Positions 6,001 through 61,700 of a stretch of 64,000 nt of DNA are shown here, piece after piece; position 1 is the stretch's first letter; every line of letters begins with the position of its first letter. Source of the stretch: the human T2T-CHM13v2.0 reference genome, Homo sapiens; assembly GCF_009914755.1 (NCBI RefSeq), contig NC_060935.1, one strand, 5' to 3'. The position numbers and the translations under genes are program-made. The notes beneath the pieces were generated by a model. That model worked only from the letters and a program-made list of their open reading frames with translations. It did no database searches and was not told where the DNA came from.

Positions 6001-6952
6001 AGAAAATATCCCAGGATAAAAAATATTAGCATGCTATCTGAGAAACAGCTTTGTTATTTGTGCATTCAGCTTACAGAGTTAAACTTTCTTTTCATTCAGC
6101 ATTTTGAAACTATTTTTTGGTAGAATCTGTGAAGGGATATTTGGGAGGGCATTAAAGCCTATGGTGAAAAAGAAAGTATCTTCAGACAAAAACTAGAAAG
6201 AATCTTTCTGAGAAACTACTTTGTGATGTGTGAGTTCATCTCACAAAGTTAAACCTTTGTTTGGATTCAGCAGCTTGGAAACAATGTTTTGTAGAATCCG
6301 CAAAAGGATACTATTTAGCTCATTGAGGCCAAATGCAAAAAGAGAATATCCCAGGATAAAAACTAGAAGAAAGCTATCTGAGAAAATGCTTTGTGATGTT
6401 TGCATTCATCTCATAGTGTCAGACCTTTCTGTTCATTCAGCACTTTGGAAACACTGTTTTCCTAGAAACTGCGAAGGGATATTTCTGAGCTCATTGTGGT
6501 CTACATTGAAAGAGGAAATATCTTCAGGTAAAAACTAGAAATAAGCTTTCTGAGAAACTTCTTTGTGATGTGTGTATTCATCTCACAGAGTTAAACTATT
6601 CTTTGGATTCAGCAGTTTGGAAACGCTGTTTTTGTCCTTTCTGTGAAAGGACATCTTGGAGCTCATTGAAGCCAATGGTGAAAAAGGGAATATTCCAGGT
6701 TAAAAAGTGGAAGGATGCTATCAGAGAAACTGCTTTGTGATGTGCAAATTCAATTCACAGAAGTAAACCTTTATTTTCATTAGACAGTTTGGAAACACTG
6801 TTTTGGTAGATTCTGCAAAAGGATATTGGGAAGTGAACTGAGACCTATGGTAAAAAATTAAATATATTCAGATGAAAACCAGAAAGAAGCTTTTAGAGAA
6901 ACTGCTTTTTGATGTGTGCATTCATCTCACAGAATTAAAGTCGTCTTTTCAT
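1..6952 (+). repeat. Diverged alpha satellite, block 1 (forward orientation)
   Basis: ~171-bp periodic motif ...gaagctttctgagaaactgctttgtgatgtgtgcattcatctcacagagttaaac...; two alternating monomer types (aaggaaatatcttcagata vs aagtgaatatcccaggata); many substitutions and indels between neighbours. Confidence 0.97.
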
Positions 6953-9900
6953 ATAGATAGCTTCCTTCTAGTTTTTATAGTGGGATATTTGCTTTTTCAT
7001 GATTGGCCTCAATGAGCTCCCAAATGTCCATTCACAGAATGGACAAAAACAGTGTTTACAAACTTTTGAATCCAAAGAAAGCTTTAAATCTGTGACATGA
7101 ATGCATATATCACAAAGCAGTTTCTCAGAAAGCTTCTTTTGAGTTTTTATCTGAAGATGTTACCTTTTTCACCTTAGGCCTTAATGTGCTCCCAAATATA
7201 CTTTCACAGATTTTACAAAAACATGGTTTCCAAACTGCTGAATGAAAAGAAAGTATTAACTCCACGAGATGAATGCACACATCACAAAGCGGTTTTTCAG
7301 ATAGCATCCTTCTACTTTTTAACCTGGGATATTCTCTTTTTTGCCTATCACTTCAATGAGCTAATATCCATTTGCAGATTCTACAAAAACATTGTTTCCA
7401 AGCTGATGAATCCATAGAAACTTTTAACTCTGTAAGGTGAATGCACACATCTCAAAGCAGTTTCTCAGAAAGCTTCTTTCTAGTTTTTATCTGAAGATAT
7501 TACCTATTTTTCTATAGGCCCCAATGCACTCCCCAATATCCCTTCAGAGATTCTACCAAAACAGTGCTTCCAAATGGCTGAATGAAAAGAAAAATTTATC
7601 GGTATGAGATAAATGCACACATAACAAAGTGGTTTCTCAGATAGCTTTCTTCTAGTTTTTATCCTTGGATATTCACTTTTTCACCTATGGACTCAATGAG
7701 CTAGCTATTGTCCCTTCACAGTGTCTCTGAAAGCTTCTTTCCAGTTTTCATCTGGAAATATTACATTTTTTCCATAGGTCTCAAGGCACTCCCAAATATC
7801 CCTTTGAAGATTCTACCAAAACAGTGTTTCCAAACTGCTAAATGTAAAGAAATGTTTAACTGTGTGAGATGAATGCACACATCACAAAGCAGTATCTCAG
7901 ATGGCTTTCTTCTAGTTTTTATCCTTGGATAGAGGATTTTTCACCTTTGACCTCAATGAGCTAAAAGATGTACATTCATAGACTGTACAAAAACAGTGTT
8001 TCCCAACTGCTGAATCCAAGGAAAATTTTAACTCTGTGAGACAAATGCACACATCACAAAGCAGTTTCTCATAAAATTTCTTTCTAGTTATTATCTTAAT
8101 ATATTTCCTTTTTCACCATAGCCCTCAATGCACTGAAAAATATCCCTTCAAAGATTCTACAAAAACAGTGTTTCCAAACAGTTGTATGAAAAGAAAGGTT
8201 TAACTCTGTGAGGTGAATACACAAATCACAAAGCGGTTTCTCACATAGGTTCCTTCTAGTTTTTATCCAGGGATATTCTCTTTTTCAAATTTGGCCACAA
8301 AGAGCTCCAAATATCCCTTTGCAGATACAGCAAAAACAGTGTTTCCAAACTGCTGAATAGAAAAAAAATGTTTAACTCTATCAGATGAATGCACACATCA
8401 CAAACCAGTGTCTCAGATATCTTCTTTCTAGTTTTCATCTGAAGATACTTCCTTTTTCACAGTATACCTCTATACGCACCAAAATATCCCTTTGCAGATT
8501 CTACCAAAACAGCATATGCAAAGAGCTGAATCCAAAGAAAGGTTTAGCTCAGTGAGTTGAATGCACACATCACAAAGCATTTTCTCAGAAAACTTCTTTC
8601 TAGTTTTTATCTGAAGTTATTTAATTTATAACCGTAGGACTCAATGCGCTCCCAAATATCCCTTCTCAGATTCTGCCAAAACAGTGTTTCTAAACCGTTG
8701 AATTAAAAGAAAATTTCAACTCTGGAAGATGAACGCACAGATCACAAAGCAGTTTCTCAGATAGCTTCCTTCTAGCTTGTATTCTTGTATATTCACTTTT
8801 TAGCCATTGGACTCAATGAGCTCCCAAATGTCCATTTGCAGAATGAACAAAACAGTGTTTCCAAACTGCTCAATTCAATGAAAGGTTTAATGCTGTGAGA
8901 TGAATGCCCACATCATTTAGCAGTTTCACAGAAAGCTTCTTTCTAGTTTTTATCTGAAGATTTTTCCTTTTTCACTGTAGGCCTAAATGGGCTCCCAAAT
9001 ATCCCTTTGCAGTATCTACAAAACAAGTGTTTCCAAACTGCTGAATGAAAAGGAAGGTTTAACTCTGCCACGTGAATGCAAACATCAAAAATTGTTTTCT
9101 CAGAAAGCTTCCTTCTAGTTTTTATCTTTGGATATTCACTTTTTGCATTTGGCCTCAATGAGCTCCCAACTATCCCTTCACTGATCCTACAACAACAGTG
9201 TTTCCAAACTGCTGAATCCAAGGAAAAGTTTAACTCTGTGAGATTAATGTACACACAATAAAGCAGTGTCTCAGAAAGTTTCTTTCTAGTTTTAAAATGA
9301 AGATATTTCTTTTTTCACCATAGGCCTCAATGCACTCCCAAATATCCCTTTGCACATGCTACATTAATAGTGTTCCCAAACTGTTCAATGAAAAGAACAT
9401 TTTAACTCTGTTAGAAGAATGCAAACATCACAAAGGGGATTCTCAGATAGCTCCCTTCTTGTTTTTATCCTAGGATATTAGCTTTTTGCCTTTGGCCTCA
9501 ATGAGTTACCAAATATCCCTTCACAGATTTTACAAAGCAGTGTTTCCAAACTGCTGAATGGAAAAAAAAATTTAACTCTATGAGATGAACGCACACATCA
9601 CAAAGTGGTTCTCAGATAGCTTCTTTATAGTTTTCATCTGAAGATATTTCCTTTTTTACAGTACACTTCTATGCACTCCCAAATATCCATTTGCAGATTC
9701 TAACAAAAGAGTGTTTCCAAACTGCTGAATGAAAAGAAAGGTTTAATTCTGTAAAATGAATGCACACATCACAAAGTGGTTTCTCAGATAACTTCCTTGT
9801 AGTTTTTGTCATGGGATATATGCTTTTCCACCTTTAGCCTCAATGAGCTCCCAAAAGTCCCTTCACAGAATGGAGAAAAACAGTGTTTCTAAACTTCTGA

Positions 9901-12900
9901 ATCCAAAGAAAGGTTTAACTCTTTCAGACGTATGCACACATCAAAAAGCAATTTCTCAGAAAGCTTCTTCCAAGTTTTTATCTGTAGATATTTACTTTTT
10001 CATCATAGGCTTCAGTGTGCTCCCAAATATCCATTCACAGATTCTACCAAAACATGGTTTCTAACGTGCTGAATCAAAAGAAGTGTTTATCTCTGCCAGA
10101 GGAATGCATACATCACTAAGTGGTTTCTCAGAGAGTTCCTTTTAGTTTTTATCCTGGAACCTTTGCTTTTTCACCAATGGCCTCAATTAGCTATCTAATA
10201 TCCCTTTTCAGATTCTATGAAAACAGTGTTCCAAACTGCTGTTTCCAAAGAATGGTTTAACTCTATGACGTGAATGCACACATCACAAAGCAGTTTCTCA
10301 GAAAGATTCTTTCTAGTTTTTATCTGGAGATATTTCCTTTTTCACCATAGGCCTCAATGCACTGCCAAACATAACTTCGCAAATTGTACCAAAACCGTGT
10401 TTCCAAACTGATGAATGGAAAGAAAGGTTGAACTCTGTGAGATGAATGCACACACCACAAAGCAGTTTCTCAGATACCTTCCTTCTAGTTTTTGTCCTGG
10501 GATATTTGCTTTTTAGACTTTGGCCTCAATGAGCAATACAATATTCTTTTGCAGATTGTACAAAAACAGTTTTTCCAATCTGCAGAATCCCAAGAAAATT
10601 TTAACTCTGTGAGTTGAATGTACACATCAGAAAACAGATTCTCAGATTGTTTCTTTGTAGTATTTATCTGAAGATATTTCCTTTTTCACCATTGACCTCC
10701 ATGGGCTCCCAAATATCGCCTCGCAGATTCTACCAAAACAGTGTTTCCAAACTGCTGAATTGAAAACAAAGTTTTAATTCTGTAAAATGATTGCACACAC
10801 CAAGAAATGGTTTCTCAGATAGTTTCCTGCGAGTATTTATGCTGCAACATTTGCTTTTTTACCTTTGGCATCCATAAACTATCAAATATCCCTTTGCAGA
10901 TTCTACATAAACAGTGTTGCCAAACTGCTGAATTTAAAGAAAGGTTTAACTCTGTGAAATGAATGTAGACATCACAAAGCAGTTTCTCAGAAAGCTTCTT
11001 TCTATTTTTATCTGAAGATATTTCCTTTCTCACCATTGGCCTCAGTGCACTCCCTATAATACCTTCACAGGTTCTACTAAAATAGTGTTTCCAACAGCTG
11101 AATGAAAAGACAGGTTTTACTCTGTGGGATGAATGCACACATCACAAAGCGGTTTCTGAAATAGCTTCCTTCTAGTTTCTATTCTGGGATATTCTCTCTT
11201 TTGCGATAGGCCTCAAAGAGCTCCAAAATATTCCTCCACAGATTCTACAAAAACAGTGTTTCCAAATTGCTGAATCCCAAGAAAATTTCAACTCATTGAG
11301 GTGAATGCATGCATCACAAACCTGTTTCTCAGATAGCTTCCTTCTAGATTTTATCTTGAGATATTAGCTGTTTCATCTTCTTGCTCAATGAGCTCCCAAA
11401 TATCCCTTTGCAGATTCTACAAAAACAGTGTTTCCAAACTGCTGAATCCAAAAAAAGGTTTAACTCTGTGAGATGAATGCAAACATCCCAAAGCAGTTTC
11501 TCCGAATGATTTTTTTAGTTTTCATCTGAAAATATTTCATTCTTCACCATAAGCCTCAATGTACTACCAAATATCCCTTCACATATTCTACAAAAACAGT
11601 GTTTCAAAACTGATGAATGAAAAGACATTTTTAAATCTGTGAGATTAATGCACACATCAAAAAGTGGTTTCTCAGATGGCTTCCTTCTAGTTTTTATCCT
11701 GGGATATTCGCTCTTTCACAATTTGCCTCAATGAGCTCCCAAATGTCCATTTGCAGATTGACAAAGACAGTGTTTCCAAACAGCTGAAAGCATAGAAAAT
11801 TTGAACTCTGTGAGATGAATGCACACATGAAAGGCAGTTTCTCAGAGAGCTTCTTTCAAGTTTTTATCTGAAGATATTTCCTTTTTCACCATAGGCCTCA
11901 AAGTTCTCCCAAATATCGCTTTACCATTTTTACATAAATAGTGTTTCCACGGTGCTGAATAAAAAGAAAGTTTTAACTTGGTGAGAAGAATGCACACATC
12001 ACAAAGCAGTTTATCAGAAAGCTTTTTTTCTGGTTTTCATATAAAGATGTTTCCTATTCACCATAGACATCAAAGAACTCCCAGAAATCTCTTAAAATAT
12101 TCTACCAAACCAGGGCTTCCAAACTGATGAATGAAAAGATATGTTTATCTCTGTGAGATGAATGCACACAATACAAAGCGATTTCTCAGATAGGTTCCTT
12201 CTAGTTTTTATCCTGGGATAGTCACTTTTTCAACTATGGCCTTAATTATCTCCCAAATGTCCATTCACAGAATGGACAAAATCAGTGCTTCCAAACTGCT
12301 GAATGAAAGAAAGTTTTAACTCTGTGTGATGAATACATGCATCACAAAGCGGTTTCTCAGATGGCTTCCTTCTAGTTTTTATCTTGAGATATTCATTTTT
12401 TCACCTTGGACTCAATGAGCTTCCAATTATCCGTTTGCTGAATGGACAAAAACAGTTTTTGCAAACTACTGAGTCCAAAGAAAGGTTTAATTCTATGATA
12501 TGAATGCACGCATCACAAAGAACTTTCTCATAAAGCTTCTTTCTAGTTTTTATCTGAAGATATCTCCTTTTTCACCATATGTCTCAATGTGCTCCCAAAT
12601 ATTCCCTCACAGATTCTACAAAAACAGTGTTTCCAAACTGCTGAATGAAAAGAAATGTTTAGCTCTTTGAAATGAATGCACACATCACAAAGAGGTTTCT
12701 CAGTTAACTTCCTTCTAATTTTTATCCTGGGCTATTTTATTTTTCACCTTTGGCCTCAGTAAGCTCCCAAATGTCCATTCAGAGAATGGACAAAAACAGT
12801 GTTTCCTATCTGCTTAGTGAAAAGAAAGGTTTAACTCTGCCAGCTGAAGGCCCACATCAAAAAGCAATTTCTCTTATAGCTTCCTTCTACTTTTTATTCT

Positions 12901-15900
12901 GGGATATTCATTTTTTTCACGTTTGTCCTCAATGAGCTCCCAAATATTCCTTCACAGATTTTACAAAAACAGTGTTTCCATCTTGCTGTATCCAAGGCAA
13001 GGTTCAACTCTGTGAGATGAATGCACATGTCACAAAGCGATTTCCCAGAAATGTTCTCTCTAGTTTTATCTGAAGATATTTTGTTTTTCACCATAAGCCT
13101 CAATGCGCTCCCAAATATCCCTTCACAGATTCTACCAAAACAGTGCTTCCAATTTGCTGAAAGAAAAGAAAGTTTTAACTCTGGGAGTTGACTTCAGACA
13201 TAAAAATGCTGTTTCTTAGATAGCTTCCCTCTAGTTTTTACCTTGGGATATTCACTTTTTCACAATTGGCCTCAAAGAGCTCCCAAATGTCCATTCACAG
13301 AATGGACAAAAACAGTGTTTCCAAACTGCTGAATACAAAGAAAGGTTAACTCTGTGAGACGAATGCACACATCAGAAAGCAGTTTCTCTGAAAGCTTCTT
13401 TGTAGTTTTTAATCTGAAGATATTTCCCTTTTCACCATAGACCTCAATGCACTCCTAAATATCCCTTCACAGATTCTACCAAAACCGTGCTTCCAAACTG
13501 CTGAATGAAAAGAAAGTTTTAACTCCATGAGTTGAATTCACACATCAGACAGGGCTTTATCAGATAGCTTCCTTCTAGTTCTCATCCTGGATTGTTCACT
13601 TTTTTGCCATTGGCCTCAATGAGCTCACAGATACCTTTCATATAGTGCACAAAAACAGTATTTCCAAACTGCTGGATCCAAAAGAAAGGTTTAACTCAGT
13701 GAGATGAATGCACACATCACAAAGCAGTTTCTCAGAATGCTTCCTTCTGGTTTTTATCTGAAGATATCTCCTTTTTCACCTTAGGCCTCAAAGCACTCCC
13801 ATATATCCCTTTGCACATTCTACAAAAGCATTGTTTCCAAACCATTGAATTAAAAGGAAGGTTTCTCAGATAGATTCCTCCTTGTTTTTCTCCTGGTATA
13901 TTCACCTTTTCACCTTTGGCCTCAATGAACTATCAAATAACTGTTTGCATATTTTACAAAAACAGTGTTTCCAAACTATTCAAAGAACTGTTTATCTCTG
14001 TCAGATGAATGCACACATCACAAAGCAGTTTCTCAGGTAGCTTCTTTCTAGGTTTTATTTGAAAATAATTCTCTTTTCACCATAGTCCTCAATGCACTCC
14101 TTGTTATCCCTTCACAGATTCTACAGAAGCATTGATTCCTCATTGCAGAATAAAAAGAAAGGTTTAACTTTTTCTCCAAAGGCCTCAATGTGCTCCCAAG
14201 TATCCCTTCGTGGATTCTGCCTTAATGGTGTTTCTAGATTATTGAATGGAAAGAGAGTTTTAACTCTGTGAGATGCATGCACACATCACAAAATGGTTTC
14301 TCAGATAGCTTCCTTCTAGTTTTTATCCTGGGATATTCCCTTTATTGCTATTGGCCTCAATGAGTCCCAAATGTTCATTCACAGAATGGACAAAAACAGT
14401 GTTTGCAAACTGCTGAATCCACAGAAAGTTTTAACTCCGTGAAGTGAATGCACACATATCAAATCCGTTTCTCAGAAAGCTTCTTTCAAGTTTTATCTGA
14501 AGATAATTCCTTTTAACCACAGGCCTCAATGTTCTCCCTTTGTGTATTCTACCAAAACAGTGTTTCCAAAATGCTGAATGAAAATAAAGATTTTAATCTG
14601 CGAGATGAATGCACACATCCCAAAGCAGTTTGTCGGATAGCTTCCTTCTACTTTTTATCCTGGGATATTCACTTTTTCACATTTGGCATCAATGACGTCC
14701 CAAATATTCCTACGCAGATTCTACAAAAACAGTGTTTCCAAACTGCAGAATGGAAAGAATGAATTAACTCTGTGAGTTGAACGCACATATTACAAAGCAG
14801 TTTCTCAGAAAGCTTCTCCCAGTTTTTATCTGAAGATAATTCCTTTTTCACCATAGGCCTCAATGGGTTCCCAAATATCCCTTCACCAATTCTATGAAAA
14901 CAATGTTTCAAAACTGCTGAATGAAAAGAAAGGTTGAACTCTCTGAGATGAATGCACACAACCTCAAGGCAGTTTTTCAGGTAGCTTCCTTCTAGTTTTT
15001 ATCCTGGGATGTTTGCTTTTTCACCTTTGGCATCTACAAAAACAGTGTTTCCAAACTGCAGAATGGAAAGAATGATTTAACCCTGTGAGATGAATGCACA
15101 CATCACAAAGCAGTTTCTCAGAAAGCTTCTTCTGGTTTTCATCTTAAGATATTTCCTTTTTCACCATAGGCCTGAGTGGGGTCCATAATATCCATTGGCA
15201 GATTCTATGAAAACAGTGTTTTGAAACTGCTGAATGAAAAGAAAGCTTTAACTCTGTGAGATCAATGCACACATCACAAAGTGGTTTCTCAGAAATCTTC
15301 CTTCTAGTTTTTACACTGGGATATTTGATTTTTTGCCTTTGGTCTCAATGAACCCCCAAATATCTCTTTGCAAATTCTACAGGAACAGTGTTTCATAACT
15401 GCTGAATCCAAAGAAAGGTGTAACTCTTTGAGATGAATGAACACATCACAAAGTTGTTTCTCAGAAAGCTTCTTTCAAATTTTATCTAAAGATATTTTCT
15501 TTTTCACCATAGGCCATATTGCCTTCCAAATATGCCTTTGCATATACTTCAAAAACAGTGTTTCCAATCTGTTGAATGAAAAGAAATTTTAACTCTGCCA
15601 GATGAATGCACACATCACAACGTGGTTTCTCAGATATCATTTTTCTAGTTTTTATCCTGAGATGTTCCCTTTCTCACCATTGGCCTCAATGAGCTCCCAA
15701 ATGTCCATTCCCATAATGGACTAAAACAGTGTTTCCAAACTGCTGGATCCAAAGAAATGTATAACTCTGAGATAAAAGCAAACATCATTAAGCAATTCTT
15801 CCGAAAGTGTCTTTCTAGTTTTTATCTGTAGATATTTCCTTTTACACCAAAGGCCTCAACGTGCTCCCAAATATCCCTTTGCTGATACAACAAAAAGAGT

Positions 15901-18900
15901 GTTTCCAAACTGCTGAATGAAAAGAAAAGTTTAACTGTGAGATGAAGGCACACATCACAAAGCGGTTTCCCAGATAGCTTCCTTCTAGTTTTTATCCTGG
16001 GATATTCACTTTTTCACCATTGGCCTCAATGAGATCCCAGATATCCATTAGCAGAATGGGCAAAAAAAGTGTTACCCAACTGCTGAATCCAAACAAAGTT
16101 TTACCTGTATGAGAAGAATGCACATACCCAAACCAGTTTCACATTAAGCTTATTTCTTGTTTTTATTTGAAAATAATGCCTTTTTCACCATAGGCCTCAA
16201 TGTGCTACGAAATATATCTTCACAGATTCTAAGAAAACACTGTTTCCAAACTGCTGAATGAAAAGGAAAGTTAAACTCTGTGACATGAATGCACACATCA
16301 CAAATCATTTTCTCAGATAACTTCCTTCTAGTTTTTATCCTGGGGTATTTGCTTTTTTGCCATTGGCCTCAGTAAGCTCCAAAATGTCCATTCACAGAAT
16401 GGACAAAAACGGTGTTACCAAACTGCTGAATCCAAAGGAAAGTTTAACTCTGTGAGATCAATGAACACATCACAAAACAGTTTCTCAGAAATCTTCTTTC
16501 TAGTTTTTATCTTAAGATACTTCCTTTTCCACCATAGGCACCAATGTGCTGCCAAATATCCTTTCACATTTCCTACAAAAACAGTGTTTCCAAAATGCTA
16601 AATGAAAAGAAAGGTTTAACTCTGCTAGATGAATGCACACATCACAAAGAGTTTTCTCAGATAGCTTCCTTCTAGTTTTAATCCTTGGATATTTTCTTTT
16701 TTCCAATGGCCTCAATGAGCTCCCAAATGTCCATTCATAGAATGGACAAAACAGTGTTTCCAAACTGCTGAATCCAAAGAAAGGTTTAACTCTCTGAGAT
16801 GAATGCACACATCCCAAACCAGTTTGTCATTAAACTTCTTTCTAGTTTTTATTTGATGATATTTCCTTTTTCACCATAGGCCTTTATACACTGCTAAATA
16901 TCCTTTTACAGTTTCTACAAAAACAGTGTTTCCAAACTGCTGAATTAAAAGAAGGGTTTAACTCTGTTAGATGAATGTGCACATCACAAAGTGGTCTCTC
17001 AGATAGCTTCCTTCTAGTTTTAATCCTGAGATATTCTCTTTTTCACCAGTGGCCTCAATGAGCACCAAAACCTTCTTTCGCAGAATGGACAAAAGCAGTG
17101 TTACTGAACTCCTGAATCCAAAGAAAGGCTTAATTCTGTTAGAAGAATGAACACAGCACAAAGCAGTTTCTCAGAAACTTTCTTGCCAGTTTTTATCTGA
17201 ATATATTTCCTTTTTCACCATGGGCCTAAATGTGCTGGCACATATTCTTTCTCAGTTTCCACAAAAGCAGTGTTTCCAAACTGTTGAATGAAAAGAAAGG
17301 TTTAACTGCAATATGAATGCACACATCATAAAGTGGATCCTCAGATAAAATCCTTGTAGTTTTCATCCTGGGATATTCACTTTTTCACCATTGGCCTCAA
17401 AGATCTCCCAAATGTCCTTTTGCAGAATGGACAAAAAGAGTTTTTGCAAACTACTGAATACACAGAATGGTTGAACTCTGTGAGATGAATTCACACAACA
17501 CAAAGCAGTTTCTCAGAAAATTTCTTTCTAGTTTTTATCTGAAGATATTGCCTTTTTCACCACAGGCCTCAAATTGCTCCCAGATATCCCTTCACAGATT
17601 CTACGAAAACACTGTTCCCAAAGGGCTGAATGAAAATAAAGGTTTTACTCTGTGAGATGAATGCACACATCACAAAGGGATTTCTCAGATAGCTTCCTTC
17701 TAGTTTTCATTCTGGGATATTTGCTTTGTTGCCATTGGCCTCAATAAGCTCCAAAACATCAATTCACAGATTTTTTAACAACAATGTTTTCATACTGCTG
17801 AATCCAAAGGAAGATTTAACTCTGTAAGAAGAATACACGCATCACCAAGTGGTTTCTCAGATAGCTTCTTTCTAATTTTTATCTGAAGTTATTTCTTTTT
17901 TCACCATAGGCCTCTAGGCACTCCCAAGTATAACTTCATAGATTTTACAAAACAGTTTCCAAACTGCTGAATGAAAAGAATGTTTTAACTCTGAGAGATG
18001 AATGCACACATCACAAAGTGGTTTCTCACATAGCTTCCTTCTAGTTTTTACCCTGTTATATTCTGTTTTTTCTCTTTGGCTTCATTAAGCCCCCAAATAT
18101 TCCTTAGCATATTCTACAACAGTGTTCTGAACTGCTGAATGCAGTGAGAGATTTAATTCTGTTGGATGAATGCACACTTCACAAAGCAGTTTCATAGAAA
18201 AGTTCTTTCTACTTTTTACTTGAAGTTATTTCCTTTTTCACCTGAAGTTATTTCCTTTTTCACCATAAGCCTCAGTGAGCTCCCAAATACCTTCACAGAT
18301 TCTGTGAAAACAGTGTTTCCATACTGCTGAATGAAACAAAAGCTTTAAGGCTGCAAGATGAATGTTCACATCACAAAGCGGTTCCTCAAGTAGCTTCCTT
18401 CTAGTTTTTATCCTGGGATGTTTGCTTTTTCACCATTGGCCTGTATGAGTGCTCAAATATCTCTTCACAGATGCTACAAGAGCAGTATTTCCAAACTGCC
18501 AAATCCAAAGACAGGTTTAAGTCTGTGAGATGAATGGACCCATCACAAAGCAGTTTCTCCGAAAGCTTCTTTCTAGTTTTTATCTAAAGATATTTCCTTT
18601 TTCACCATAGGCCACAAAGCACTACGAGATATCCCTTTGTGGATTTTCCAAAACAGTGTTTCCAAACTGCTGAATGAAAAGAAAGGTTTAACACTATGAG
18701 ATAAATGCACACATCACAAACCAGCTTCTCAAAGAGCTTTCTTCTAGTTTTTACCCTGGGATATTCACTTCTTCACCGTTGACCTCAATGATCCCTTCAC
18801 AGATTCTACAACAACAGTATTTCCAAAATGCTGAATCAAAAGAAAGTTTTAATTCTTTGTGATATGTGCATCTTTGTGATGGATGCACATATCATAAAGC

Positions 18901-31600: not shown

Positions 31601-31619
31601 AAGGCAGTCTCTGACACAG

Positions 31620-35433: not shown

Positions 35434-35451
35434 AAGACAACGTGGGTTCCA
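35434..35451 (-). promoter_or_regulatory. Decayed primer-binding site (tRNA-Lys-like)
   Basis: Minus strand TGGAACCCACGTTGTCTT, 2 nt after the 5' LTR end; partial match to the Lys PBS TGGCGCCCAACGTGG. Confidence 0.65.
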
Positions 35452-35453
35452 GA

Positions 35454-36521: not shown

Positions 36522-49046
<12,525 letters not shown>

Positions 49047-52977: not shown

Positions 52978-53608
52978 AAGTCAGTGTGGCGATTCCTCAG
53001 GGATCTAGAACTGGAAATACCATTTGACCCAGCCATCCCATTATTGGGTATATACCCAAAGGATGATAAATCTTGCTGCTATAAAGACACATGCACATGT
53101 ATGTTTATAGTGGCACTATTCACAATAGCAAAGACTTGGAACCAACCCGAATGTCCAACAATGATAGACTGGATTAACAAAACGATAGACTGGCACATAC
53201 ACAGCATGGAATACTATGCAGACATAAAAAATGATGAGTTCATGTCCTTTGCAGGGACATGGATGAAGCTGGAAACCACCATTCTCAGCAAACTATTGCA
53301 AGGACAAAAAAATCAAACACTGCGTGTTCTCACTCATAGGTGGGAATGGAACAATGAGAACACGTGGACACAGGAAGGTGAACATCACACACCAGTTACC
53401 GTTGTGGGATTGGGGGAGGGGGGAGGGATAGCATTAGGAGATATACCAAATGCTAAATGACTAGTTAATGGGTGCAGCACACCAACATGGCACATGTATA
53501 CATATGTAACAAACCTGTATGTGGTGCACATGTACACTAAAACTTAAAGTATAATAATAATAAAATTTAAAAAATAAATAAATAAATAAATAATAAAAAA
53601 TAAAAGAA
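52978..53608 (+). mobile_element. L1PA-type LINE-1 3' end, 5'-truncated (~630 bp)
   Basis: 14-bp TSD aaaaactaaaaaga (52964-52977 / 53609-53622); ORF2 C-terminus WRFLRDLELEIPFDPAIPLLGIYPK; 3'UTR; tail with (aaat)n. Confidence 0.95.
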
Positions 53609-55439
53609 AAAAACTAAAAAGATTTCTGACAAACTGCTTTGTGATGTGCTCATTCATCTAACAGAATTAAACCCTGTTTTTTGATTCAGCAGTTTGGAAA
53701 AACTTTTTCTCCTCCTGCTAATGGACATTTTGGAACTTATTGATTCCAACGGCAAAAGAGCTGTCTGAGAAAATGCTTTGTGTAGCATTTGTAACTCTCA
53801 CAGAGTTCAAACTTACTTTTCATTCAGCAGTTTCGAAACATTGTTTAGTAGAAACTGCAAAGGGACATTCGGGAACACCTTGAGGCCTATGGTGAAAAAG
53901 GAAATAACTTCAGATAATAACTAGAAAGAAGCTTCCTGAGAAACTGCTTTGTGATGTGTGCATTCATCTGACAGAGTTAAACATTTCTTTAGATTCAGCA
54001 GTTTGGATGCACTGTTTTTGTCCATTCAGCAAATGGACATTTGGGACCACATTGAGGCCAAAAGTGAAAAAGTGACTATCCCATGATAAAAACTAGAAGA
54101 AAGCTATCTCAGAAACCGATTTGTGATGAGTGCATTCATCTCACCGAGATAAACCTATCTTTTCTTTCAGCAGTTTGGAAAAACTGTTAGATAGAATCTG
54201 TGAAGGGATATTTGGGAGTACATTGAGGCCTATGGTGAATAAGGAAATAGGTTCAGATAAAAAGTATAAAGAAGCTTTCTGAGAACTTTCTTCATGATGT
54301 GTATTGAGGCCAATGGTGAAAAAGTAATTATCTTCAGAAAAAACATAGTAAGAAGCTTTCTGAGAACTGTTTTGTAATGTGTGCATTAATCTCAGAGAGA
54401 TAAACGTTTCTGTGGAATCAGCAGTTTGCATATACTGTTTTTGCACATTCTACAAATGGACTTTTGGGTACTCGTTGGGGCCAATGTTGAAAAAGTGAAT
54501 ATGCCAGGATAAAAACTAGGAGGAATTGTCTGATAAACCACTTTGTGATGTATGCATTCATCTAGCAGAGGTAAACCTCTTTTTTCATTTAGCAATTTGG
54601 AAACACTGTTTTTGTAGAATATTGAAGGGATACTTGGCAGTGCTTTAAGGCCCATGGTGAAAAAGGAAGTATCATCAGATAAAAACTAGAAAGAAGCTTT
54701 CTGAGCAACTGGTTTGGGATTTGTGCATTCATCTCAGAGAGTAAACCTTTCTTTGGATTTAACAGCTTGGAAACACTGTTTTTGTCCATTCTGTGAACGG
54801 ACATTTGGGAGCTCATTTAGGCCAATTGTGAAAAAGTGAATATTCCAGGATTAAAACTAGAAGGAACCTACCTGAGAAACGGCTTTGTGATGTGTGCATT
54901 CAGCTTGCAGAGGTAAACCTTTCTTTTCATTCAGCAGTTTGGAAACACCGTATTTGTAGAATCTGTGAATGGATATTTGGCATCACTTTGAGGCCTATGA
55001 TGAAATAGAAAATATCATTAGCTATAAACTATAAAGAAGTGTTCTGAGAAATTGCTTTGTGATGTGCTCATTCATCTCACAGAGTTAAACCTTTCCTTAG
55101 ATTCAGCATTTTGGAAATCCTGTTTTTGTACATTCTGCGAATGGACTTTTGGGAACTCACGGATGCCAATGTCGCAAAAGTGAGTATCCCAGGATAAAAA
55201 CTGGAAGGAAGTTATCTGAGAAACGGATTTCTGATGTGTGCATTCAACTCACAGTGTTAAAACTTTGTTTTCATTTAGCAATTTGGAAACACTCTTTTCT
55301 CAAAGTCTGGGAAGAGACATTTCAAAGACTGTGGAGGCCTATGGTGAAAATGGAAATATCTTTAGATAAAAACTAGAAAGAAACATAATGAGAAACTGGC
55401 TTGGGATGTATGCATTCATCCCAGGGATTTAAACTTTTC
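53609..55439 (+). repeat. Diverged alpha satellite, block 3d (forward)
   Basis: ~171-bp monomers with partial deletions. Confidence 0.95.
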
Positions 55440-55761
55440 TTTTTTTTCTTTATTGTATTTTAAGTTTTGGGGTCCATGTGCACAACGCGCAGGTTAGTTG
55501 CAACTGTATAACTGTGCCATGTTGGTGTGCTGCACCCATTAACTCGTCATTTAACATTAGGTATATCTCCTAATGCTATCCCTCCCCCATCCCCCCACCA
55601 CACAACAGGCCCCGGTGAGTGATGTTCCCCTTCCTGTGTCCATGTGTTCTCATTGTTCCATTCCCACCTATGAGTGAGAACATGCGGTGTTTGTTTTTTT
55701 CTCCTTGTGATAGTTTGCTGAGAATGATGGTTTCCAGATTCATCCATGTCCCTACAAAGGA
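55440..55761 (-). mobile_element. L1PA-type LINE-1 3'UTR fragment (~320 bp), antisense, no TSD
   Basis: Poly-T then tattgtattttaagtttt...gcacccattaactcgtcattt...ttcccacctatgagtgagaacatgcgg...catccatgtccctacaaagga. Confidence 0.93.
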
Positions 55762-58710
55762 TGAAAACTAGAAAGAAGCTATCTGAGACACCGGTTTCTG
55801 ATGTGTGCATTCATCTCAGAGAGTTAAACTTTTTTTTTTTTTTTCTATTCAGCAGTTTGGAAACACTGTTTTTGTAGAATCTGTGAAGGGATATTCTGTA
55901 GCTAATTGAGGCCAAAGGCAAAAAAAGCTAATATCCAATGATTATAAACTAGAGGGAAGCTATCTGAGAAACTACTTTGTGATGTGTGCATTCTACTCAC
56001 AGAGTTAAAACTTTCTCTTCATTCAGTGGTTTGGAAACACTCTTTTTGTAGAATCTGCAAAGGGTTATTTGGGAGTGCATTGAGGCCTATGGTGAAAAAG
56101 GAAATATCTTCATTTGAAAACTAGAAAGAAACTTTCTGAGACGCTGCTTTATGATGTATGCATTCATCTCACAGAGTTAAACCATTCTTTGGATTCAGCA
56201 GTTTGGAAACACTGCTGTTGTAAATCAGCGAAGGGATATTTGGGAGCTCATTGATGACAAATGCAAAAAGCGAATATCCCCGGATGAAAATTAGAAGAAA
56301 GCTAATTGAGAAACTGCTTTTTGAAGTTTGCATTCACCTTGCAGTGTTAAAGCTTCCTTTTTATTGAGCGGTTTGGAAACAATTGTTTTGTAGAATCTGC
56401 GAAGGGATATTTGGCAGCCCGTTGAGGCCTATGGTGAAAAAGGAAATATCCTCAGATAAAAACTATAAAGAAGCTTTCTGCAAAACTGTTATGTGATATG
56501 TGCATTCATCTCACAGCGTTAAACTTCTCATTGCATTGAGCAGTTTGGAAACAATGTTTTGTCCATTCCATGAATGGACATTTGGGAGCTCATTGAGGCC
56601 AATGGTGAAAAAGTGAATATCCAAGAATAAAAACTAGAAGGAACCTATCTGAGAAACCACTTTGTGATGTGTGCATTCCTCTTGCAGAGTTCAAACTTTC
56701 TTTTCATTCCAAAATTTGGAAATGCTCTTTTGGCAGAATCTGCAAAAGCATATTTGGGAGGGCATTGAGTCCTATGGATAAAAATTAAATAACTTCAGAT
56801 GAAAATTAGAAAGAAGCTTTATGAGAAACTGCTTTGTGATGGGTGCATCCATCCCACAGAGGTAAACCTTTCTTTGGATTCAGCTGTTTGGAAACTGTTT
56901 TCATGCATTCTGTGAATAGATATTTGGGAGCTAGTTGAGACCAATGGTGAAAATGTGAATATCCCAGGATAAAAACTAGAAGGAAGCTATCTGAGAAACA
57001 GCTTTGTGATATGTGCATTCATCTCACAGAATGAAAACTTTCTTTCCATTCAGCAGTTTGGAAATGCTGTTTTGGTATTATCTGCGAAGGCATATTTGGG
57101 AGTGCGTTGAGGCCTATGATGAAAAAGGAAATATCTTCAGATGAAAACTACAAAGAATCTTTCTGACAAACTGCTTTGTGGTGTGTGCATTCATGTCACA
57201 GAGATAAATCTTTTTTGTGTGTTCGGTTGTTTGGAAACATTGTTTTTGTAGAATCTGCAAAGGGATATTTGGGAGCCCTTTGAGGCCAAAGGTGCAAAAG
57301 GGATTATCCCTGGATAGAAACTAGAAGGATGCTATCTGAGAAACCGCTTTGCATTGTGTGTATTCATGTCACAGATTTAAACCTTTCTTTTCAGTCAGCA
57401 GTTAGGAAGCACTGTTTTTGTAGAATCTGTGAAGGGATATTTTGGATCGCATTGAGGCCAGTGGTGAAAATGTAAATATCTTCAGATAATAACTAGAAAG
57501 AAATTTTCTGAGAAACTGCTTTGTGATGCGTGCATTAGTCAAACAGAGTTAAAACTTTCTTTGGATTCAGCAGTTGGGAAACACTGTTTTTATACATTCT
57601 GTGAATGAACATTTTGGAGGTCATCTAGGCCAATGGCTAAAAAGGGAATATCCCAGGATAAAAACTAGAAGAAACATATGAGATAAACGGCTTTGTGATG
57701 TGTGCATTCACCTCACAGATTCAAACCTTTCTTTTCTTTCAGCAATTTGGAAACACTATTTTGGTAGAATCTGTGAAGGGATGTTTTGGAGTGCATTGAG
57801 GCCTAGGGACAAAAAGTTAATATCTCCAGATAAAAAGTAAAAAGAAGCTTTCTGAGAAACTTCTTTTTGATGTGTGCATTCATCTCACAGAGTTAAACAT
57901 TTCCTTGGATTCAGCAGTTTGGAATCAATGTTTTTCTCCCTTCTACGAATGTATATTTTGGAGCTCATTGAGATCAAAGGTGAAAAAGCAAATATCCAAG
58001 GATTAAAACTAGAAGAAAACTATCTGAGAAACCACTTTGTGATGAGTGCATTCATCTCACACAGAAAAACTTTTCTTTTCCTTCAGCCATTTGGAAAATC
58101 TGTTTTTTTTAGAATCTGTGAAGGGATATTGGGGAGCACATTGAGGCTTATAGAAAAATAGATAATATCTTCAGATAAAAACAAGAAAGAAGCTTTCTGA
58201 GAAACTGCTTTGTGATGTGTGCATTCATCTCAGAGAGGTAAACCTTCCTTTGGATTCAGCAGCTTGGAATCAATGTTTTTGTAGAATCTGCAAATGGATA
58301 TTAGATCATTGAGGTGTTAGGCAAAAATACGAATATCCCAGGATAAAAACTAGAAGGAAGCTATCTGAAAAACTGCTTTGTGATGTGTGCATTCATCTCG
58401 TGGAGTTAAAAGTTTCTTTTCATTCAACAGTTTGGAAACTCTTTTTTTGTAGAATATGCAAAGGGATATTTGGGAGCTCATGGAGGCCTAAGAGAAAAAT
58501 GTAATATCTTCAGATAAAAACTCAAAAGAAGCTTTCTGAGAGACTGCTTTGTCGTGTGTACATTCATGTCACAGATTTAAAACTTTCTTTGGATTCAGCA
58601 GTTTCTAAACACTGGTTTTGTCTATTCTGTGAGTGGACATTTGGGAACTGATTGAGGCCAATCACGAAAAAGCAAATATCCCAGGATAAAAACTAGAAAG
58701 AAGCTATCTG
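55762..58710 (+). repeat. Diverged alpha satellite, block 3e (forward)
   Basis: ~171-bp monomers ending at gaagctatctg. Confidence 0.97.
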
Positions 58711-61700
58711 TATGAAAAAGACGACTTTAATTCTTTGAGGTGAATGCATACATCCCAAAGCAGTTTCTCAGATACCTTCCTCCTTTTTTTAACCTGGGAT
58801 ATTCACTTTTTCACCTTTGGCCTCAATGATCTCCCAAATATCCCTTTGCAGTTTATTCCAAAACAGTGTTTACAAACTACTGAATCCAAAGAGAGGATTA
58901 ACTCTGTGAGAAGAATGCACACATCACAGAGGAATTTCTCAGACAAATTCTGTCTAATTTTTACCGTGAGATATTTGCTTTTTTGCCATTGGACTCAATG
59001 AGCTCCAAAATATCCCTTCTCATACTCTACCAAAACAGTGTTTTCAAACTGCTGAATCCAGAAAAGTGGTTAAGACTGTGAGATGAATGCACACATCACA
59101 AAGCAGTTTCTCATACAGCTTCCTTCTAGCTTTTATAGTGGGATATTCACTTTTTCCCCTTTGGCCTCAGTGAGCTCCGAAATATCCCTTCACAGATTAT
59201 ACAAAAACAGTGTTTCCAAAGTGCTAAATGAAAAGAACAGTTTAACTCTGTGAGGTGAATGCACACACCACAAAGCTTTTTCTCAGATAGTTTCCTTGTA
59301 GTTTTTATCCTGTGATATTCCTTTTTTTGACTATGGCCCCAATGAGCTATCAAATATCCCTTCATAGGTTCTCAAAAAACAGTGTTTCCAAATTGCTGAA
59401 TGAAAAGAAAGGTTTAATTCTGTGAGATGAATGCACAGATCTCAATGCAGATTCTCAGAAAGGTTCTTTCTAGTTCTTATCCGAAGGTATTTCCTTTTTC
59501 ACCATAGGCCTCAATGGGCTCCCAAATATCCTTTCGTGAATTATACCAAAACTGTGTTTACAAAATGCTGAATGAATAAAAAGTTTTTACTCTGAAAGAT
59601 GAATGCATACATCACAAAGTGGTTTTTCAGATATCTTTCTTATAGTTTTTATCCCGGATATTAACATTTTCCTTACTGGCCTCAAAGACCTCCCAAATGT
59701 CCATTCATAGAAAGACAAAAACAGTGTTTTCAAATTGCTCTATCCAAAGAAAAGTTTACCTCAGTGAGGTGAGTGCTTTCATCACAAACATTTCCTCAGA
59801 AAGCTTCTTTCTATTTGTTATCTGAAGATATTTTCTTTTTCACCATATGCTTTAAAGCCTTCCCAAATATCCCATAGCAGATATTACAAAAACAGTGTTT
59901 CCAAACTGCTGAATCCAAAAAAAGGTTTACTGTGAGAGATGAATGCACACATCACAAAGCAGTTTCTCAGAAAGCTTCTTTCTAGTTTTTATCTGAAGAT
60001 ATTTATTTTTTCACCGTAGGCCTCAATTCACTCCCAAATATCCCTTCACAGATTATACCAAAAGAGTGTTTCCAAACTGCTTAATGAAAAGAAAGTTTTA
60101 ACTCTGTTATATGAATGCACACATCACAAGCACTTTATCAGAAAGCTTCTTTCCAGTTTTTATCTGAAGACGTTTTGTTTTTCACTGCAGTCCTCAAAGC
60201 ACTCCCAAATATCCCATAGCAGATACTACAAAAACAGTGTTTCCAAACTGTTGAATGAAAAAGGTTTAACTCGTGATTTGAATGAACCATCGCAAAGTAG
60301 TTTATCAGATAAATTCCTTCTAATTTTCATCCTGGGATATTCACAGTTTCACAACTGGCCTCAATGACTTCCAAAATTTTCCATTTGCAGAGTGGAAAAA
60401 ACAGTGTTTCCACACTGCTGAATCCAATAATGGTTTAAATCTGTGAGATGAATGCTCACATCACAAAGCAGTTTTTCAGAAAGTTTCTTTCTAATTTTTA
60501 TTTTAAGATATTTCCTTTTTCACTGTAGGCCTCTATGAGCTCTGAAATATCCCTTTGCAGATTCTACAATAACAGTGTTTAAAACTGCTGAATGAAAAGA
60601 AAGGTTAGACTTTGTGAGATGAATGCACACATCACAGAGTGGTTTCTGAGATAACTTTCTTCTAGTTTTTATCTTGGATATTTGTTTTTTCACCTATGGC
60701 CTCAATGAGCTGTCTAATATCCCTTTGCAGATTCTACCAAAACAGCCTTCCCAAACTGATTAATCCTAAGAAGCATTTAACTCTGTGAGACAAATGCACA
60801 CGTCACAAAGCAGTTTCTGAGAAAACTTCTTTCCAGTTTTTATCTGAAGATATTTCCTTTTTCATCATAGGCCTCAATGCATCACCAATATCCCTTTGCA
60901 GAATCTACCAAAGCTGGTTTTCCAAAATTCTGAATGAAAATAAATTTTTATATCTGCAAGATGAATGCACACATCACAAAGCAGTTTCTCAGATAGCATC
61001 CTTCGGGTTTTTATCAAGGGATATTCCCTTTTTCACCTTTGGCCTCAATGAGCTCTCAAATATCCCTTCACAGATTCTGTAAAAACAGTGTTACAAAATT
61101 ACTGAATCCAAAGACAGTTTTAACTCTGTGAGATGAGTGCACACATCACAAAGCAGTTTCTCAGAAAGCTTTTTTTCTAGTTTTGATCTAATGATATTTC
61201 CTTTTTCACCATACCCCTTCAATGCACTCCCAAATGTCCCTTCATAGATTCTACCAAAACAGTGTTTCCAAACTGCTGATTGAAAAGGAAGGTTTACCTC
61301 TGCCAGATAAATTCGCACATCATAAAGCATTTTCTCAGATAGCTTGCTTCATATTTTTATCCTGGAATATATGCTTTTTTGCCATTGACCTCAATGAGGT
61401 CCCAAATATCCATTTGCAGAATGGACAGAAACAGTGTTTCTAAACTGCTGAAGTCAAAGCAAGCTTTAACTCAGTGAGATGAATGCACACATCACAAACA
61501 GGTTTCTCAGATAGCTTCCTTCTAGTTTTTATCCTGGGATATTCACAATTTCACAATTGGTGTCAATGAGCGCAAAATTGTCCTTTCACAAAATGGAAAA
61601 AAAATTGTGTTTCCAAACTGCCAAACCCAAAAAAAGGTTTAACTGTGAGATGAATGCACACATCACAAAGTAGTTTCTCAGTGAAATTCTTTCTACTTTT

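What the first reader, a model, noticed from the sequence alone, without database searches (positions are those of the whole stretch)
6300..59350. Two satellite inversion junctions 52 kb apart are the same junction: a hidden ancient inverted duplication
Seen: the switch at ~6953 reads cagaattaaagtcgtcttttcat|atagatagcttcc, and the switch at ~58711 reverse-complements to aagaattaaagtcgtctttttcat|acagatagcttct. The breakpoint is the same, and so is the private variant gaattaaagtcgtc. Private variants stay collinear inward: aactccacgagatg (~7258 vs ~58394), a shared ~4-bp deletion aatga.ctaatatccatttgc (~7355 vs ~58300), tttctagttattatc (8081 vs 57485), ctgaagttatttaattt (8611 vs 56782), ctcaat.caatg (~8870 vs ~56530), tttttgcatttg (~9130 vs ~56260) and probably catcatagg (~10000 vs ~54995). 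A hand count gave ~21 differences in ~208 bp (~10%) next to the junction. Outward homology (6300-6950 vs 58711-59350) is weaker. Inference: an inversion happened first; a segment of at least ~3 kb spanning it was then duplicated and now lies inverted. The L1 at 55440 came later, as it is absent from the left copy. Repeat masking would normally hide this.
Basis: partly seen in the sequence, partly recalled or inferred. Interest (0 to 1): 0.8.

Follow-up and report, generated by a model that had tools for sequence, protein, structure and literature searches.

The report
Old inverted duplication inside centromere-flank satellite

Summary
The strand switches at about 6953 (J1) and 58711 (J3) share the same breakpoint and a private 20-mer found nowhere else in the window. 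Inward of them, 16 monomers (L 6896-9640, R 55760-58769) are collinear in inverted orientation at 82-88% identity, against about 80% for the next-best placements.

The duplication is far larger than 3 kb.
- **Beyond the L1:** the right arm picks up again at 54413-55423, matching 17120-16110. The right copy lacks 6.46 kb exactly at the L1 and out of monomer register. Contig C7 keeps at least 3.07 kb of that stretch.
- **Outward flank:** there is no outward homology from 57 bp past the junction for about 2.5 kb. It then resumes at 1261-4414, matching 65854-69009, which lies just outside the window.
- **Other copies:** a third copy of the junction lies at C7:63,955,540. It shares the inner arm with both chr11 copies, over 5 kb of outward flank with the right copy only, and a second strand switch (K) with the left copy. 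A fourth, mosaic copy on the other side of the chr11 centromere lacks J but carries paralogs of the 22870 switch (J2) and of K.

So the junction predates all the copies. It was carried along by ancient duplications (K2P 0.12-0.20) of divergent monomeric alpha satellite. This is a new example of a known kind and of modest interest.

The parts
6944..6955 (.). J1, the left +/- strand switch. The breakpoint can only be placed within about 8-11 bp (TTTCATATAGA), because that stretch fits both monomer orientations.
   Evidence: Sequence. nhmmer hits on the two strands overlap at 6911-6939. Ordinary minus-strand monomers elsewhere read TCTCAGATAGATAGCTTCC.
58709..58720 (.). J3, the right +/- strand switch, a reverse-complement paralog of J1.
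   Evidence: (91% over 84 bp spanning the switch).
6896..9640 (-). Left inner arm (blocks A-C, 16 monomers) plus 57 bp of the + side of the junction.
55760..58769 (+). Right inner arm, the partner of 6896-9640. It has about 84 bp extra at 57863-57961 (the left copy has two partial monomers at 7595-7849) and one extra monomer at 56891-57063.
55437..55759 (-). Antisense, 5'-truncated retroelement 3' end with a T-run at its left edge. It is read as L1 from recall. It is absent from the left and C7 copies and marks the 6.46-kb gap.
   Evidence: Sequence. 87.5% identical to 53245-53557. Monomer 270 is cut to 73 bp while monomer 269 is complete.
9641..16109 (-). Stretch present in the left copy and missing from the right copy at the L1. 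9640-12710 also has a collinear partner on C7.
   Evidence: three 1026-bp segments all place best on the same C7 diagonal, at 81.9, 87.6 and 82.2%.
16110..17120 (-). Left inner block X3, where homology with the right copy resumes.
   Evidence: 81.9%, best of 250, next 78.8%; core 84.6%, best of 267, next 81.1%; 4 of 4 consecutive windows place best on one diagonal.
54413..55423 (+). Right inner block X3, the partner of 16110-17120. It lies just inside the L1.
4415..6895 (+). Left outward flank with no mirror partner. It stands where the right and C7 copies carry block O1. At its inner end (6895/6896) both copies stay in monomer register with each other.
   Evidence: best placement is R 65226-63784 at 81.2% for 4000-5450, only 1.9 points clear.
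1261..4414 (+). Left outward block O1b, where inverted homology resumes. Its partner is at 65854-69009, outside the window.
   Evidence: 84.5% over 3173 bp, the top-scoring of 12,324 HSPs; 11 monomers, mean identity 0.879, above the maximum of 261,485 null runs.
59079..64000 (-). Right outward block O1. It is shared with C7 (87.2% over 5174 bp, running on to 64231) and absent from the left copy.
   Evidence: 23 monomers, 0.881; genome-wide only self and C7 exceed 81%.
22867..22871 (.). J2, the -/+ switch between the two arms. It is an independent old junction with paralogs on the q side of the chr11 centromere.
   Evidence: 90.1% over 497 bp at chr11:55,008,768, plus an inverted copy at 81-84%.

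Best explanation
J1 and J3 are two surviving copies of one older +/- strand-switch junction (J). J lay inside a block of divergent, monomeric alpha satellite at least about 37 kb long. That block, with its embedded strand switches, was copied several times as an ancient segmental duplication.

**Copies found:**
- Two copies in opposite orientation on the p side of the chr11 centromere. These give J1 and J3.
- One copy on contig C7 at 63.95 Mb.
- One mosaic copy on the q side of the chr11 centromere at about 55.01 Mb, which has lost J.

**Later events broke the collinearity:**
1. From 57 bp outward of J, left 4415-6895 and right 58770-65853 have no mirror match, and the left copy lacks block O1. 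Both copies stay in monomer register with each other across the inner edge of this break (6895/6896). I infer unequal exchange between monomers, or else expansion of O1 in the other lineage. This is why the outward flank looked unrelated.
2. The right copy lost 6.46 kb at the point where a 323-bp antisense L1 3' end sits. This edge is out of monomer register. I infer an L1 insertion-associated deletion.
3. There are small indels of about 84 bp and about 170 bp.
4. A provirus and other retroelements inserted between the arms.

**Shown:** the paralogy, the block map, and the absence of the L1 from the other copies.
**Inferred:** the mechanisms of the two large gaps, the direction of the duplication, and the age.
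For: - **Same breakpoint and private variant:**
- **Collinear inverted arms:** they rank first among 246-261 placements. They are the 2nd and 4th best of 9,813 self-HSPs in the window; the 1st is an LTR pair.
- **Monomer ranks:**. **Mutual nearest neighbours on the anti-diagonal:**
- **Resumption beyond the L1:**. **Outward resumption:**
- **C7 copy:**
  - It spans J (86% over query 4-201).
  - It shares the near-junction arm with both chr11 copies.
  - It shares O1 with the right copy only.
  - It shares X2 (L 9026-12703, 83.2% over 3691 bp) with the left copy only.
  - It shares the far flank with the left copy (-5553 to -19991, 83.5-87.6%), including switch K at 88.6% over 492 bp.
- **Genome-wide 445-451-bp probes** (each scored 40 of about 4,900-5,700 candidates):
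  - Arm probe: self, R 89%, C7 87%, next 83%.
  - O1 probe: self, C7 89%, next 81%.
  - X2 probe: self, C7 89%, chr11 q side 88%, next 83%.
- **Register:** monomer 269 is complete and monomer 270 is cut to 73 bp at the L1. Monomers 41 and 288 are full length across the left outward edge.
Against: - **Branching order is weak.** Three-way informative sites are LR|C 174, LC|R 116, RC|L 114 (p = 1.8e-4). The excess comes from one 605-column block where C7 is only about 80% identical. The 1243 columns next to J give 99/86/80, which is close to a star.
- **A conflict over O1.** O1 is shared by R and C7 but is missing from both L and the q-side copy. That fits an insertion or expansion in an R+C7 lineage as well as it fits two deletions, and it conflicts with L and R being sisters.
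- **Block B is barely distinct:** 82.5% against 80.8% for the next placement.
- **The L1 name rests on recall.** It also rests on similarity to other inserts, one of which gives only a sub-threshold RVT_1 match (E 2.2e-4, 21.4 bits against a cut-off of 29.6). No repeat library was on hand.
- **The inner limit is open.** L 17120-22860 has no distinct partner on the p side.
- **Genome searches scored only 40 candidates each**, so further copies cannot be excluded.
Confidence: 0.85

Rival explanations
1. A small duplication. A segment of only about 3 kb that happened to include J and 57 bp beyond it was copied in inverted orientation. The 57-bp edge is the true end of the duplicated piece.
For: Homology stops sharply 28-57 bp outward of J1, and the next 2.5 kb has no mirror partner. 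Inward, it seems to stop at the L1 (segment D).
Against: Homology resumes on both sides: 16110-17120 with 55423-54413, and 1261-4414 with 65854-69009. The left copy's far outward flank, to at least 26.9 kb from J1 (window -19991, the end of the fetched stretch), matches the flank of the C7 copy and includes the second switch K. Both copies stay in monomer register with each other across the 57-bp edge, as expected from exchange between monomers and not from a random insertion end.
Confidence: 0.07
2. A fold-back palindrome centred on J2. One inverted-duplication event at 22870 produced both arms, so J2 is the palindrome centre and the region from about -19 kb to +76 kb is one decayed palindrome.
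For: The strand pattern is mirror-like: -|+|-|+|-|+ with switches at -18996, 6953, 22870, 58711 and 75795. Two of 8 segments next to J2 place best on a diagonal centred at about 22840.
Against: Those two placements beat the next best by only 0.4 and 0.8 points. L 17120-22860 has no distinct partner on the p side. J2 with 3 kb on one side and 4.7 kb on the other has a direct paralog on the q side at 85-90%, so J2 is itself an inherited junction. K3 (75795) is homologous neither to K1 and the C7 copy of K nor to J2.
Confidence: 0.1
3. Two independent inversions at a recurrent breakpoint, with arm similarity due to shared monomer types or to gene conversion.
For: Monomer types recur. Many unrelated monomer pairs reach 88-91% identity, and single monomers of the arm find 90-94% matches on other chromosomes.
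Against: The breakpoint is identical on both sides of the switch, with a private 20-mer. 16 monomers are collinear. Indel-type private variants are shared. Divergence is an even 12-18% rather than patchy near-identity. A third copy exists on C7.
Confidence: 0.02
4. An assembly artefact that created a false inverted copy.
For: None from these tools.
Against: The copies differ by 12-18% and by several indels, a retroelement and 6.46 kb. A mis-join or collapse would give near-identical copies.
Confidence: 0.01

Closest known systems
Strand switches (inversion breakpoints) in divergent and monomeric alpha satellite, as counted genome-wide in T2T-CHM13 (Altemose et al., bioRxiv 10.1101/2021.07.12.452052; passages read)
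   Same: The window is divergent monomeric alpha satellite with several strand switches, L1s and other insertions. [quoted passage not shown]
   Different: The passages I read count breakpoints per megabase. They do not say that separate breakpoints can be paralogous copies of one event. Here J occurs 3 times, J2 3 times and K 3 times, so breakpoint counts overstate the number of inversion events. I did not see the supplementary tables (S6, S7, S13, S14), which may list these sites.
Pericentromeric intra- and interchromosomal segmental duplications that include monomeric alpha satellite (recalled from the pericentromere-duplication literature, not read here)
   Same: Large blocks are copied within a pericentromere and between pericentromeres of different chromosomes, and then decay.
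   Different: Identity here is 82-88%, below the usual 90% threshold for calling a segmental duplication. The sequence is also entirely satellite, so standard duplication maps and repeat masking would not show it.
Palindromic segmental duplications with a spacer, such as sex-chromosome palindromes (recalled)
   Same: Two arms lie in inverted orientation on one chromosome, separated by a spacer.
   Different: Those arms are kept above 99% identical by arm-to-arm gene conversion. These arms have drifted to K2P 0.12-0.20, with no sign of ongoing conversion.
L1 insertion-associated target-site deletion (recalled from cell-culture and human-chimpanzee comparison studies, not read here)
   Same: A 5'-truncated L1 3' end with its A-tail at one edge sits exactly where one copy lacks 6.46 kb that two paralogs retain. 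The gap is out of satellite register, and no target-site duplication is apparent.
   Different: The evidence comes from paralogs, not from an orthologous empty site. The element's family and age were not checked against a repeat library.

Membership tests
Divergent (monomeric) alpha satellite | Tandem monomers of about 171 bp | tested here: met
   319 nhmmer monomer hits cover 51.6 kb of the 64 kb. The median is 166 model columns.
Divergent (monomeric) alpha satellite | No higher-order repeat: neighbouring and distant monomers are about equally diverged, with no long near-identical multi-monomer units | tested here: met
   45,821 monomer pairs have mean identity 0.757, and the 99.9th percentile is 0.890. 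The best multi-monomer direct repeats reach only 82-83%.
Divergent (monomeric) alpha satellite | Assignment to a named suprachromosomal family or monomer class | not testable with these tools
   No alpha-satellite monomer library is on hand. I saw only a two-monomer register (in-register placements about 80% against a mean of 75%).
Inverted segmental duplication | Two copies in opposite orientation, collinear over many kb, each the other's best match | tested here: met
Inverted segmental duplication | Conventional threshold of at least 1 kb at 90% identity or more | tested here: not met
   Blocks are 82.3-88.7% identical. It works like an old segmental duplication but would not be listed as one.
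Same junction (paralogous breakpoint) | Identical breakpoint position in both flanking monomers | tested here: met
   Three-way alignment. A 26-mer across the switch finds only J1, J3 and C7 as +/- junctions among 7 genome hits.
Same junction (paralogous breakpoint) | Shared derived variants on both sides of the breakpoint | tested here: met
   Plus side: a 20-mer with 0 and 1 mismatches, against 4 or more elsewhere. Minus side: motifs unique to the pair.
L1 insertion-associated deletion | The insert is an L1 3' end with a poly(A) tail | tested here: inconclusive
   A T-run and a sequence I recognise from recall as an L1 3' end. It is 87.5% identical to another insert in the window. A related 2.1-kb insert gives only a sub-threshold RVT_1 match.
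L1 insertion-associated deletion | Sequence present at the empty site is missing exactly at the insertion, with no target-site duplication | tested here: met
   L 9641-16109 is absent from R at 55436/55760. C7 retains 9640-12710. This rests on paralogs, not an ortholog.
Single conservative inversion with J and K as its two ends | Monomer phases at the two breakpoints are reciprocal | tested here: not met
   By my reading of the sequence and HMM coordinates, J joins + phase about 8-10 to - phase about 130. K joins - phase 46-50 to + phase 25. A shared origin would need about 36 bp and 64 bp (modulo one monomer) lost at the ends.

The most novel reading that the evidence does not exclude
J, J2 and K form a set of strand-switch landmarks that travelled together. 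Their copies on both flanks of the chr11 centromere and beside the C7 centromere would record a series of very old duplications of a centromere flank, possibly including a fold-back or isodicentric-like event. All of this sits below the 90% identity cut-off and inside masked satellite. Paralogous junctions could then serve as rare, nearly homoplasy-free markers for reconstructing how ancestral primate centromere flanks were copied and split. Published counts of inversion breakpoints in divergent alpha satellite would overstate the number of independent inversions.
Probability: 0.2. Interest if true: 0.5.

Novelty: new member of a known kind. Interest (0 to 1): 0.3.

Why it matters
Divergent alpha satellite next to centromeres is usually masked, and its internal history is described only as layers, inversions and TE insertions. 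This case shows three things.
- Separate strand switches can be copies of one event.
- Duplications at 82-88% identity can still be traced through satellite by private variants and shared breakpoints.
- Paralogs can serve as stand-ins for an empty site, here dating an L1 and exposing a 6.46-kb loss.

It does not change the accepted picture of centromere flanks. It adds a worked example and a possible marker class for dating old pericentromeric duplications in ape and monkey T2T assemblies.

Tried and rejected
- **Long blastn ranking by bit score:** this hid the signal, because 4-kb in-register alignments at about 76% outscore the indel-broken arms. I replaced it with placement ranking.
- **Single-monomer best hits:** these are noisy because monomer types recur. 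Rank and run tests were needed.
- **Outward flank at any offset inside the window:** nothing rose above the in-register 80%.
- **Homology just past the L1 on the same diagonal (L 9700-10640):** not supported. Mirror ranks were 25-136.
- **A third inner block (19729-20240 with 51976-51487):** not confirmed at 684-bp scale.
- **A local palindrome around J2:** not significant.
- **K3 as the partner of K1, or of J2:** the breakpoints differ.
- **J and K as reciprocal ends of one inversion:** the phases do not fit.
- **Branching order of the three copies:** misaligned C7 in the far part and was redone. The result stays weak.
- **A 3.1-kb genome query:** not scored because there were too many candidates.
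- **Literature (passages of one preprint):** two full-text searches listed no paper on this locus or on paralogous satellite inversion junctions. That covers only the held library, those search terms, and the 15 titles and abstract openings listed per search.
Full report
**What the window is.** nhmmer with a monomer profile built from the window finds 319 alpha-satellite monomer hits covering 51.6 kb.
- Orientation runs + (1-6939), - (6911-22870), + (22867-58760), - (58726-64000).
- Non-satellite inserts lie at 28455-36520, 46961-49046, 52981-53605 and 55436-55757.
- Over 45,821 monomer pairs the mean identity is 0.757 (sd 0.045), and the 99.9th percentile is 0.890.
- This is divergent, monomeric satellite. 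It has a two-monomer register: in-register placements reach about 80%, against an overall mean of about 75%.

**The observation.**
- All 8 quoted motifs were searched. Six occur only at the two predicted mirror positions. Two hit the pair plus 1-2 other sites. The 9-mer CATCATAGG occurs 4 times and is uninformative.
- Placement ranking asks where each left segment aligns best over at least 85% of its length:
  - 6896-7702 matches 58769-57962 at 88.4%, best of 249 (next 82.3%).
  - 7720-8515 matches 57861-57064 at 82.5%, best of 261 (next 80.8%).
  - 8519-9638 matches 56890-55760 at 85.5%, best of 246 (next 80.1%). The reciprocal test from the right gives the same result.
- Among 9,813 self-HSPs in the window, the two arm HSPs rank 2nd and 4th by score. 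The 1st is an LTR pair.
- At monomer level, 12 of 16 left monomers (42-57) rank the collinear right monomer in the top 5 of about 307, and 7 of 16 rank it first. The worst ranks are 14, 21 and 24.
- Ten of the window's 82 mutual-top-3 monomer pairs lie on this anti-diagonal.
- In a 5-monomer run scan, the junction-proximal run is the strongest of 69,271 runs (z 5.5), and the distal arm run is third (z 4.4).
- The right arm has about 84 bp extra at 57863-57961 and one extra monomer at 56891-57063.

**The junction itself.**
- The 20-mer CTCACAGAATTAAAGTCGTC on the + side has 0 mismatches at 6926 and 1 at 58739-58720(-). The next best sites have 4 mismatches (20 sites).
- A 26-mer spanning the switch finds 7 sites in the whole genome at 3 or fewer mismatches, against 0 for the reversed control. 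Only J1, J3 and C7:63955540 have + satellite upstream. The other 4 are ordinary minus-strand monomers reading TCTCAGATAGATAGCTTCC.
- That comparison also shows that about 8-11 bp at the switch fit both orientations. The breakpoint is therefore localised only to 6944-6955 and may involve microhomology. That last point is an inference.

**Outward of the junction.** Homology ends 28-57 bp outward.
- The next 50-mer (6846-6895) does not find its mirror partner among the best hits.
- 0 of 13 scoreable outward monomers rank their mirror partner better than 42nd.
- No offset inside the window rescues it.
- After fetching 20 kb on each side, the top-scoring of 12,324 self-HSPs is 1261-4414 with 69009-65854 (inverted, 84.5% over 3173 bp). 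Its core of 11 monomers has mean identity 0.879, above the maximum of 261,485 orientation-scrambled null runs.
- So the outward flank is homologous, but only after a break: 2.5 kb on the left (4415-6895) stands opposite 7.1 kb on the right (58770-65853).
- Both copies stay in monomer register with each other across the inner edge of this break, at 6895/6896. Monomers 41 and 288 are full length and align without a gap.

**Inward of the L1.**
- The insert at 55437-55759 has a T-run at its left edge and reads, from my recall of the consensus, as the antisense 3' end of an L1.
- It is 87.5% identical to part of the 52981-53605 insert.
- On the original diagonal, homology does not continue.
- The right segment just inside the L1 has a clear partner elsewhere. 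54582-55261 matches 16950-16271 at 84.6%, best of 267 (next 81.1%). 54413-55423 matches 17120-16110 at 81.9%, best of 250 (next 78.8%).
- 4 of 4 consecutive 342-bp windows place best on that one diagonal, among 275-282 placements each.
- The right copy therefore lacks the equivalent of L 9641-16109 (6.46 kb) exactly at the L1.
- The gap is out of register: monomer 269 is complete, and monomer 270 is cut to its last 73 bp.
- Beyond 17120 / 54413 no distinct partner was found on the p side.

**A third copy on contig C7 (160.57 Mb, taken to be chromosome 7).** A 201-bp probe across J1 finds three junction-spanning matches: self, J3 (90%) and C7:63955432-63955629 (86%) (40 of 3,405 candidates were scored). 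With 50 kb of C7 fetched, the map is as follows.
- C7 shares the near-junction arm with both chr11 copies.
- It shares more than 5 kb of outward flank (O1: R 59079-64231, 87.2% over 5174 bp) with the right copy only.
- It shares L 9026-12703 (83.2% over 3691 bp) with the left copy only.
- It shares its far outward flank with the left copy's far flank (window -5553 to -19991, 83.5-87.6%).
- That far flank includes a second strand switch K: C7 41427 on my 50-kb scale matches window -18996 at 88.6% over 492 bp.
- Three consecutive 1026-bp left segments from 9640 to 12717 all place best on one C7 diagonal, at 81.9, 87.6 and 82.2%.

Two conclusions follow. J predates all three copies. And at least 3.07 kb (9640-12710) of the 6.46 kb missing from the right copy is ancestral, with no L1 at that point in C7 or in the left copy.

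**A fourth, mosaic copy on the q side of the chr11 centromere.** A probe from L 10700-11150 finds C7 (89%) and chr11:55013802-55014251 (88%), with the next best at 83%. Forty kb fetched there contain the following:
- A direct paralog of J2 with its flanks. Window 19688-27584 matches in three blocks at 84.6-85.8%, and 90.1% over 497 bp across the switch.
- A second, inverted J2 copy at 81-84%.
- X2 at 85%.
- Part of the near-junction arm (R 57355-58032, 91.4%). It ends at a new +/- switch and is followed by R 64826-65719 (85.2%).
- K at 86.2%.

This copy has lost J and O1. So J2 and K, like J, each exist in three paralogous copies.

**Order and age.**
- Three-way informative sites total LR|C 174, LC|R 116 and RC|L 114 (chi-square p = 1.8e-4). 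The 1243 columns next to J give 99/86/80, and the excess comes from a block where C7 is only about 80% identical.
- I read this as weak support for the two chr11 p-side copies being sisters. O1 being shared by R and C7 only pulls the other way.
- K2P distances are L-R 0.12-0.20, R-C7 0.13-0.17 and L-C7 0.13-0.19. The two LTRs of the provirus between the arms give 0.084.
- The duplications are therefore about 1.5-2.4 times older than that insertion.
- At 1-2 x 10^-9 substitutions per site per year, K2P 0.15 corresponds to roughly 35-75 Myr. This is a rough inference. Satellite may mutate or convert faster.

**Mechanism (inferred).** The block was copied as ordinary, if very old, pericentromeric segmental duplications, one of them inverted within the p-side flank.
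- The break in the outward flank starts in monomer register. That fits unequal exchange between monomers. Expansion of O1 in the other lineage is the alternative.
- The right copy's gap is out of register and sits exactly at an L1. That fits an L1 insertion-associated deletion, or an L1 patching a break.
- J and K do not have reciprocal monomer phases, so a single clean inversion does not explain both.
- K3 at 75795 is a different junction.
- A fold-back palindrome centred on J2 is not supported, but it is not excluded.

**Comparison with what is known.**
- The T2T centromere preprint states that diverged alpha satellites are known to contain many inversions. [quoted passage not shown]
- Two full-text searches listed no paper on this locus or on paralogous satellite junctions (listings only). 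The supplementary tables of the preprint were not seen.
- The finding is a real, nicely resolved instance of a known kind. At 82-88% identity it falls below the usual segmental-duplication threshold, and it lies inside masked satellite, which is why it is 'hidden'.

**Limits.**
- No repeat library, primate assemblies or reads were available.
- Genome searches scored only 40 candidates per query.
- The chromosome identity of C7 is taken from its number and length.

Noticed in passing
window 28455-36520 (- strand): An 8.07-kb provirus between the two arms. It has 1066-bp direct LTRs (28455-29519 and 35454-36515) that are 91.7-92.1% identical (K2P 0.084). Broken minus-strand frames match Pfam Gag_p24, RVT_1, RVT_thumb, RNase_H, Integrase_Zn, rve and HERV-K_env_2. 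I only described it.
   Followed up: partly
window 46961-49046; C7:63932700-63934789; chr11:55025999-55028101: A 2.1-kb retroelement insert made of two halves in opposite orientation that meet at about 48108. The same two halves, meeting at the same internal point, occur on C7 (89.2-89.5%) and on the chr11 q side (88.2-89.7%). The insert may therefore predate the duplications and belong to the copied block. RVT_1 is only sub-threshold.
   Followed up: partly
window 22867-22871; chr11:55,008,768 and chr11:54,996,991: The -/+ switch J2 has a direct paralog on the q side of the chr11 centromere (90.1% over 497 bp, with 3-5 kb of flanks at about 85%) and a second, inverted copy there (81-84%). Paired paralogous strand switches are therefore not unique to J.
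   Followed up: partly
window 40630-42019 / 43341-44744; 59800-61427 / 62366-63999; 24939-25790 / 25796-26635: Old tandem duplications of multi-monomer blocks, with offsets of 2711, 2566 and about 850 bp and 82-83% identity. These are local amplification inside the monomeric array. Just right of the window (70.7-75.8 kb on the window scale) a 1.2-1.5-kb unit is amplified at 85-88%.
   Followed up: no
window 52981-53605 and 55437-55759: Two short inserts related to each other (53245-53557 with 55761-55450, 87.5%, inverted) and to 48502-49040 (86.6%). They look like 3' ends of the same retroelement family, named L1 from recall only.
   Followed up: no
whole window: A small set of monomers scattered over the window are 89-91% identical to each other, well above the 76% mean. 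Examples start at 1260, 2799, 3662, 5033, 24424, 44085, 45278 and 50462. A conserved monomer subtype recurs throughout the array.
   Followed up: no
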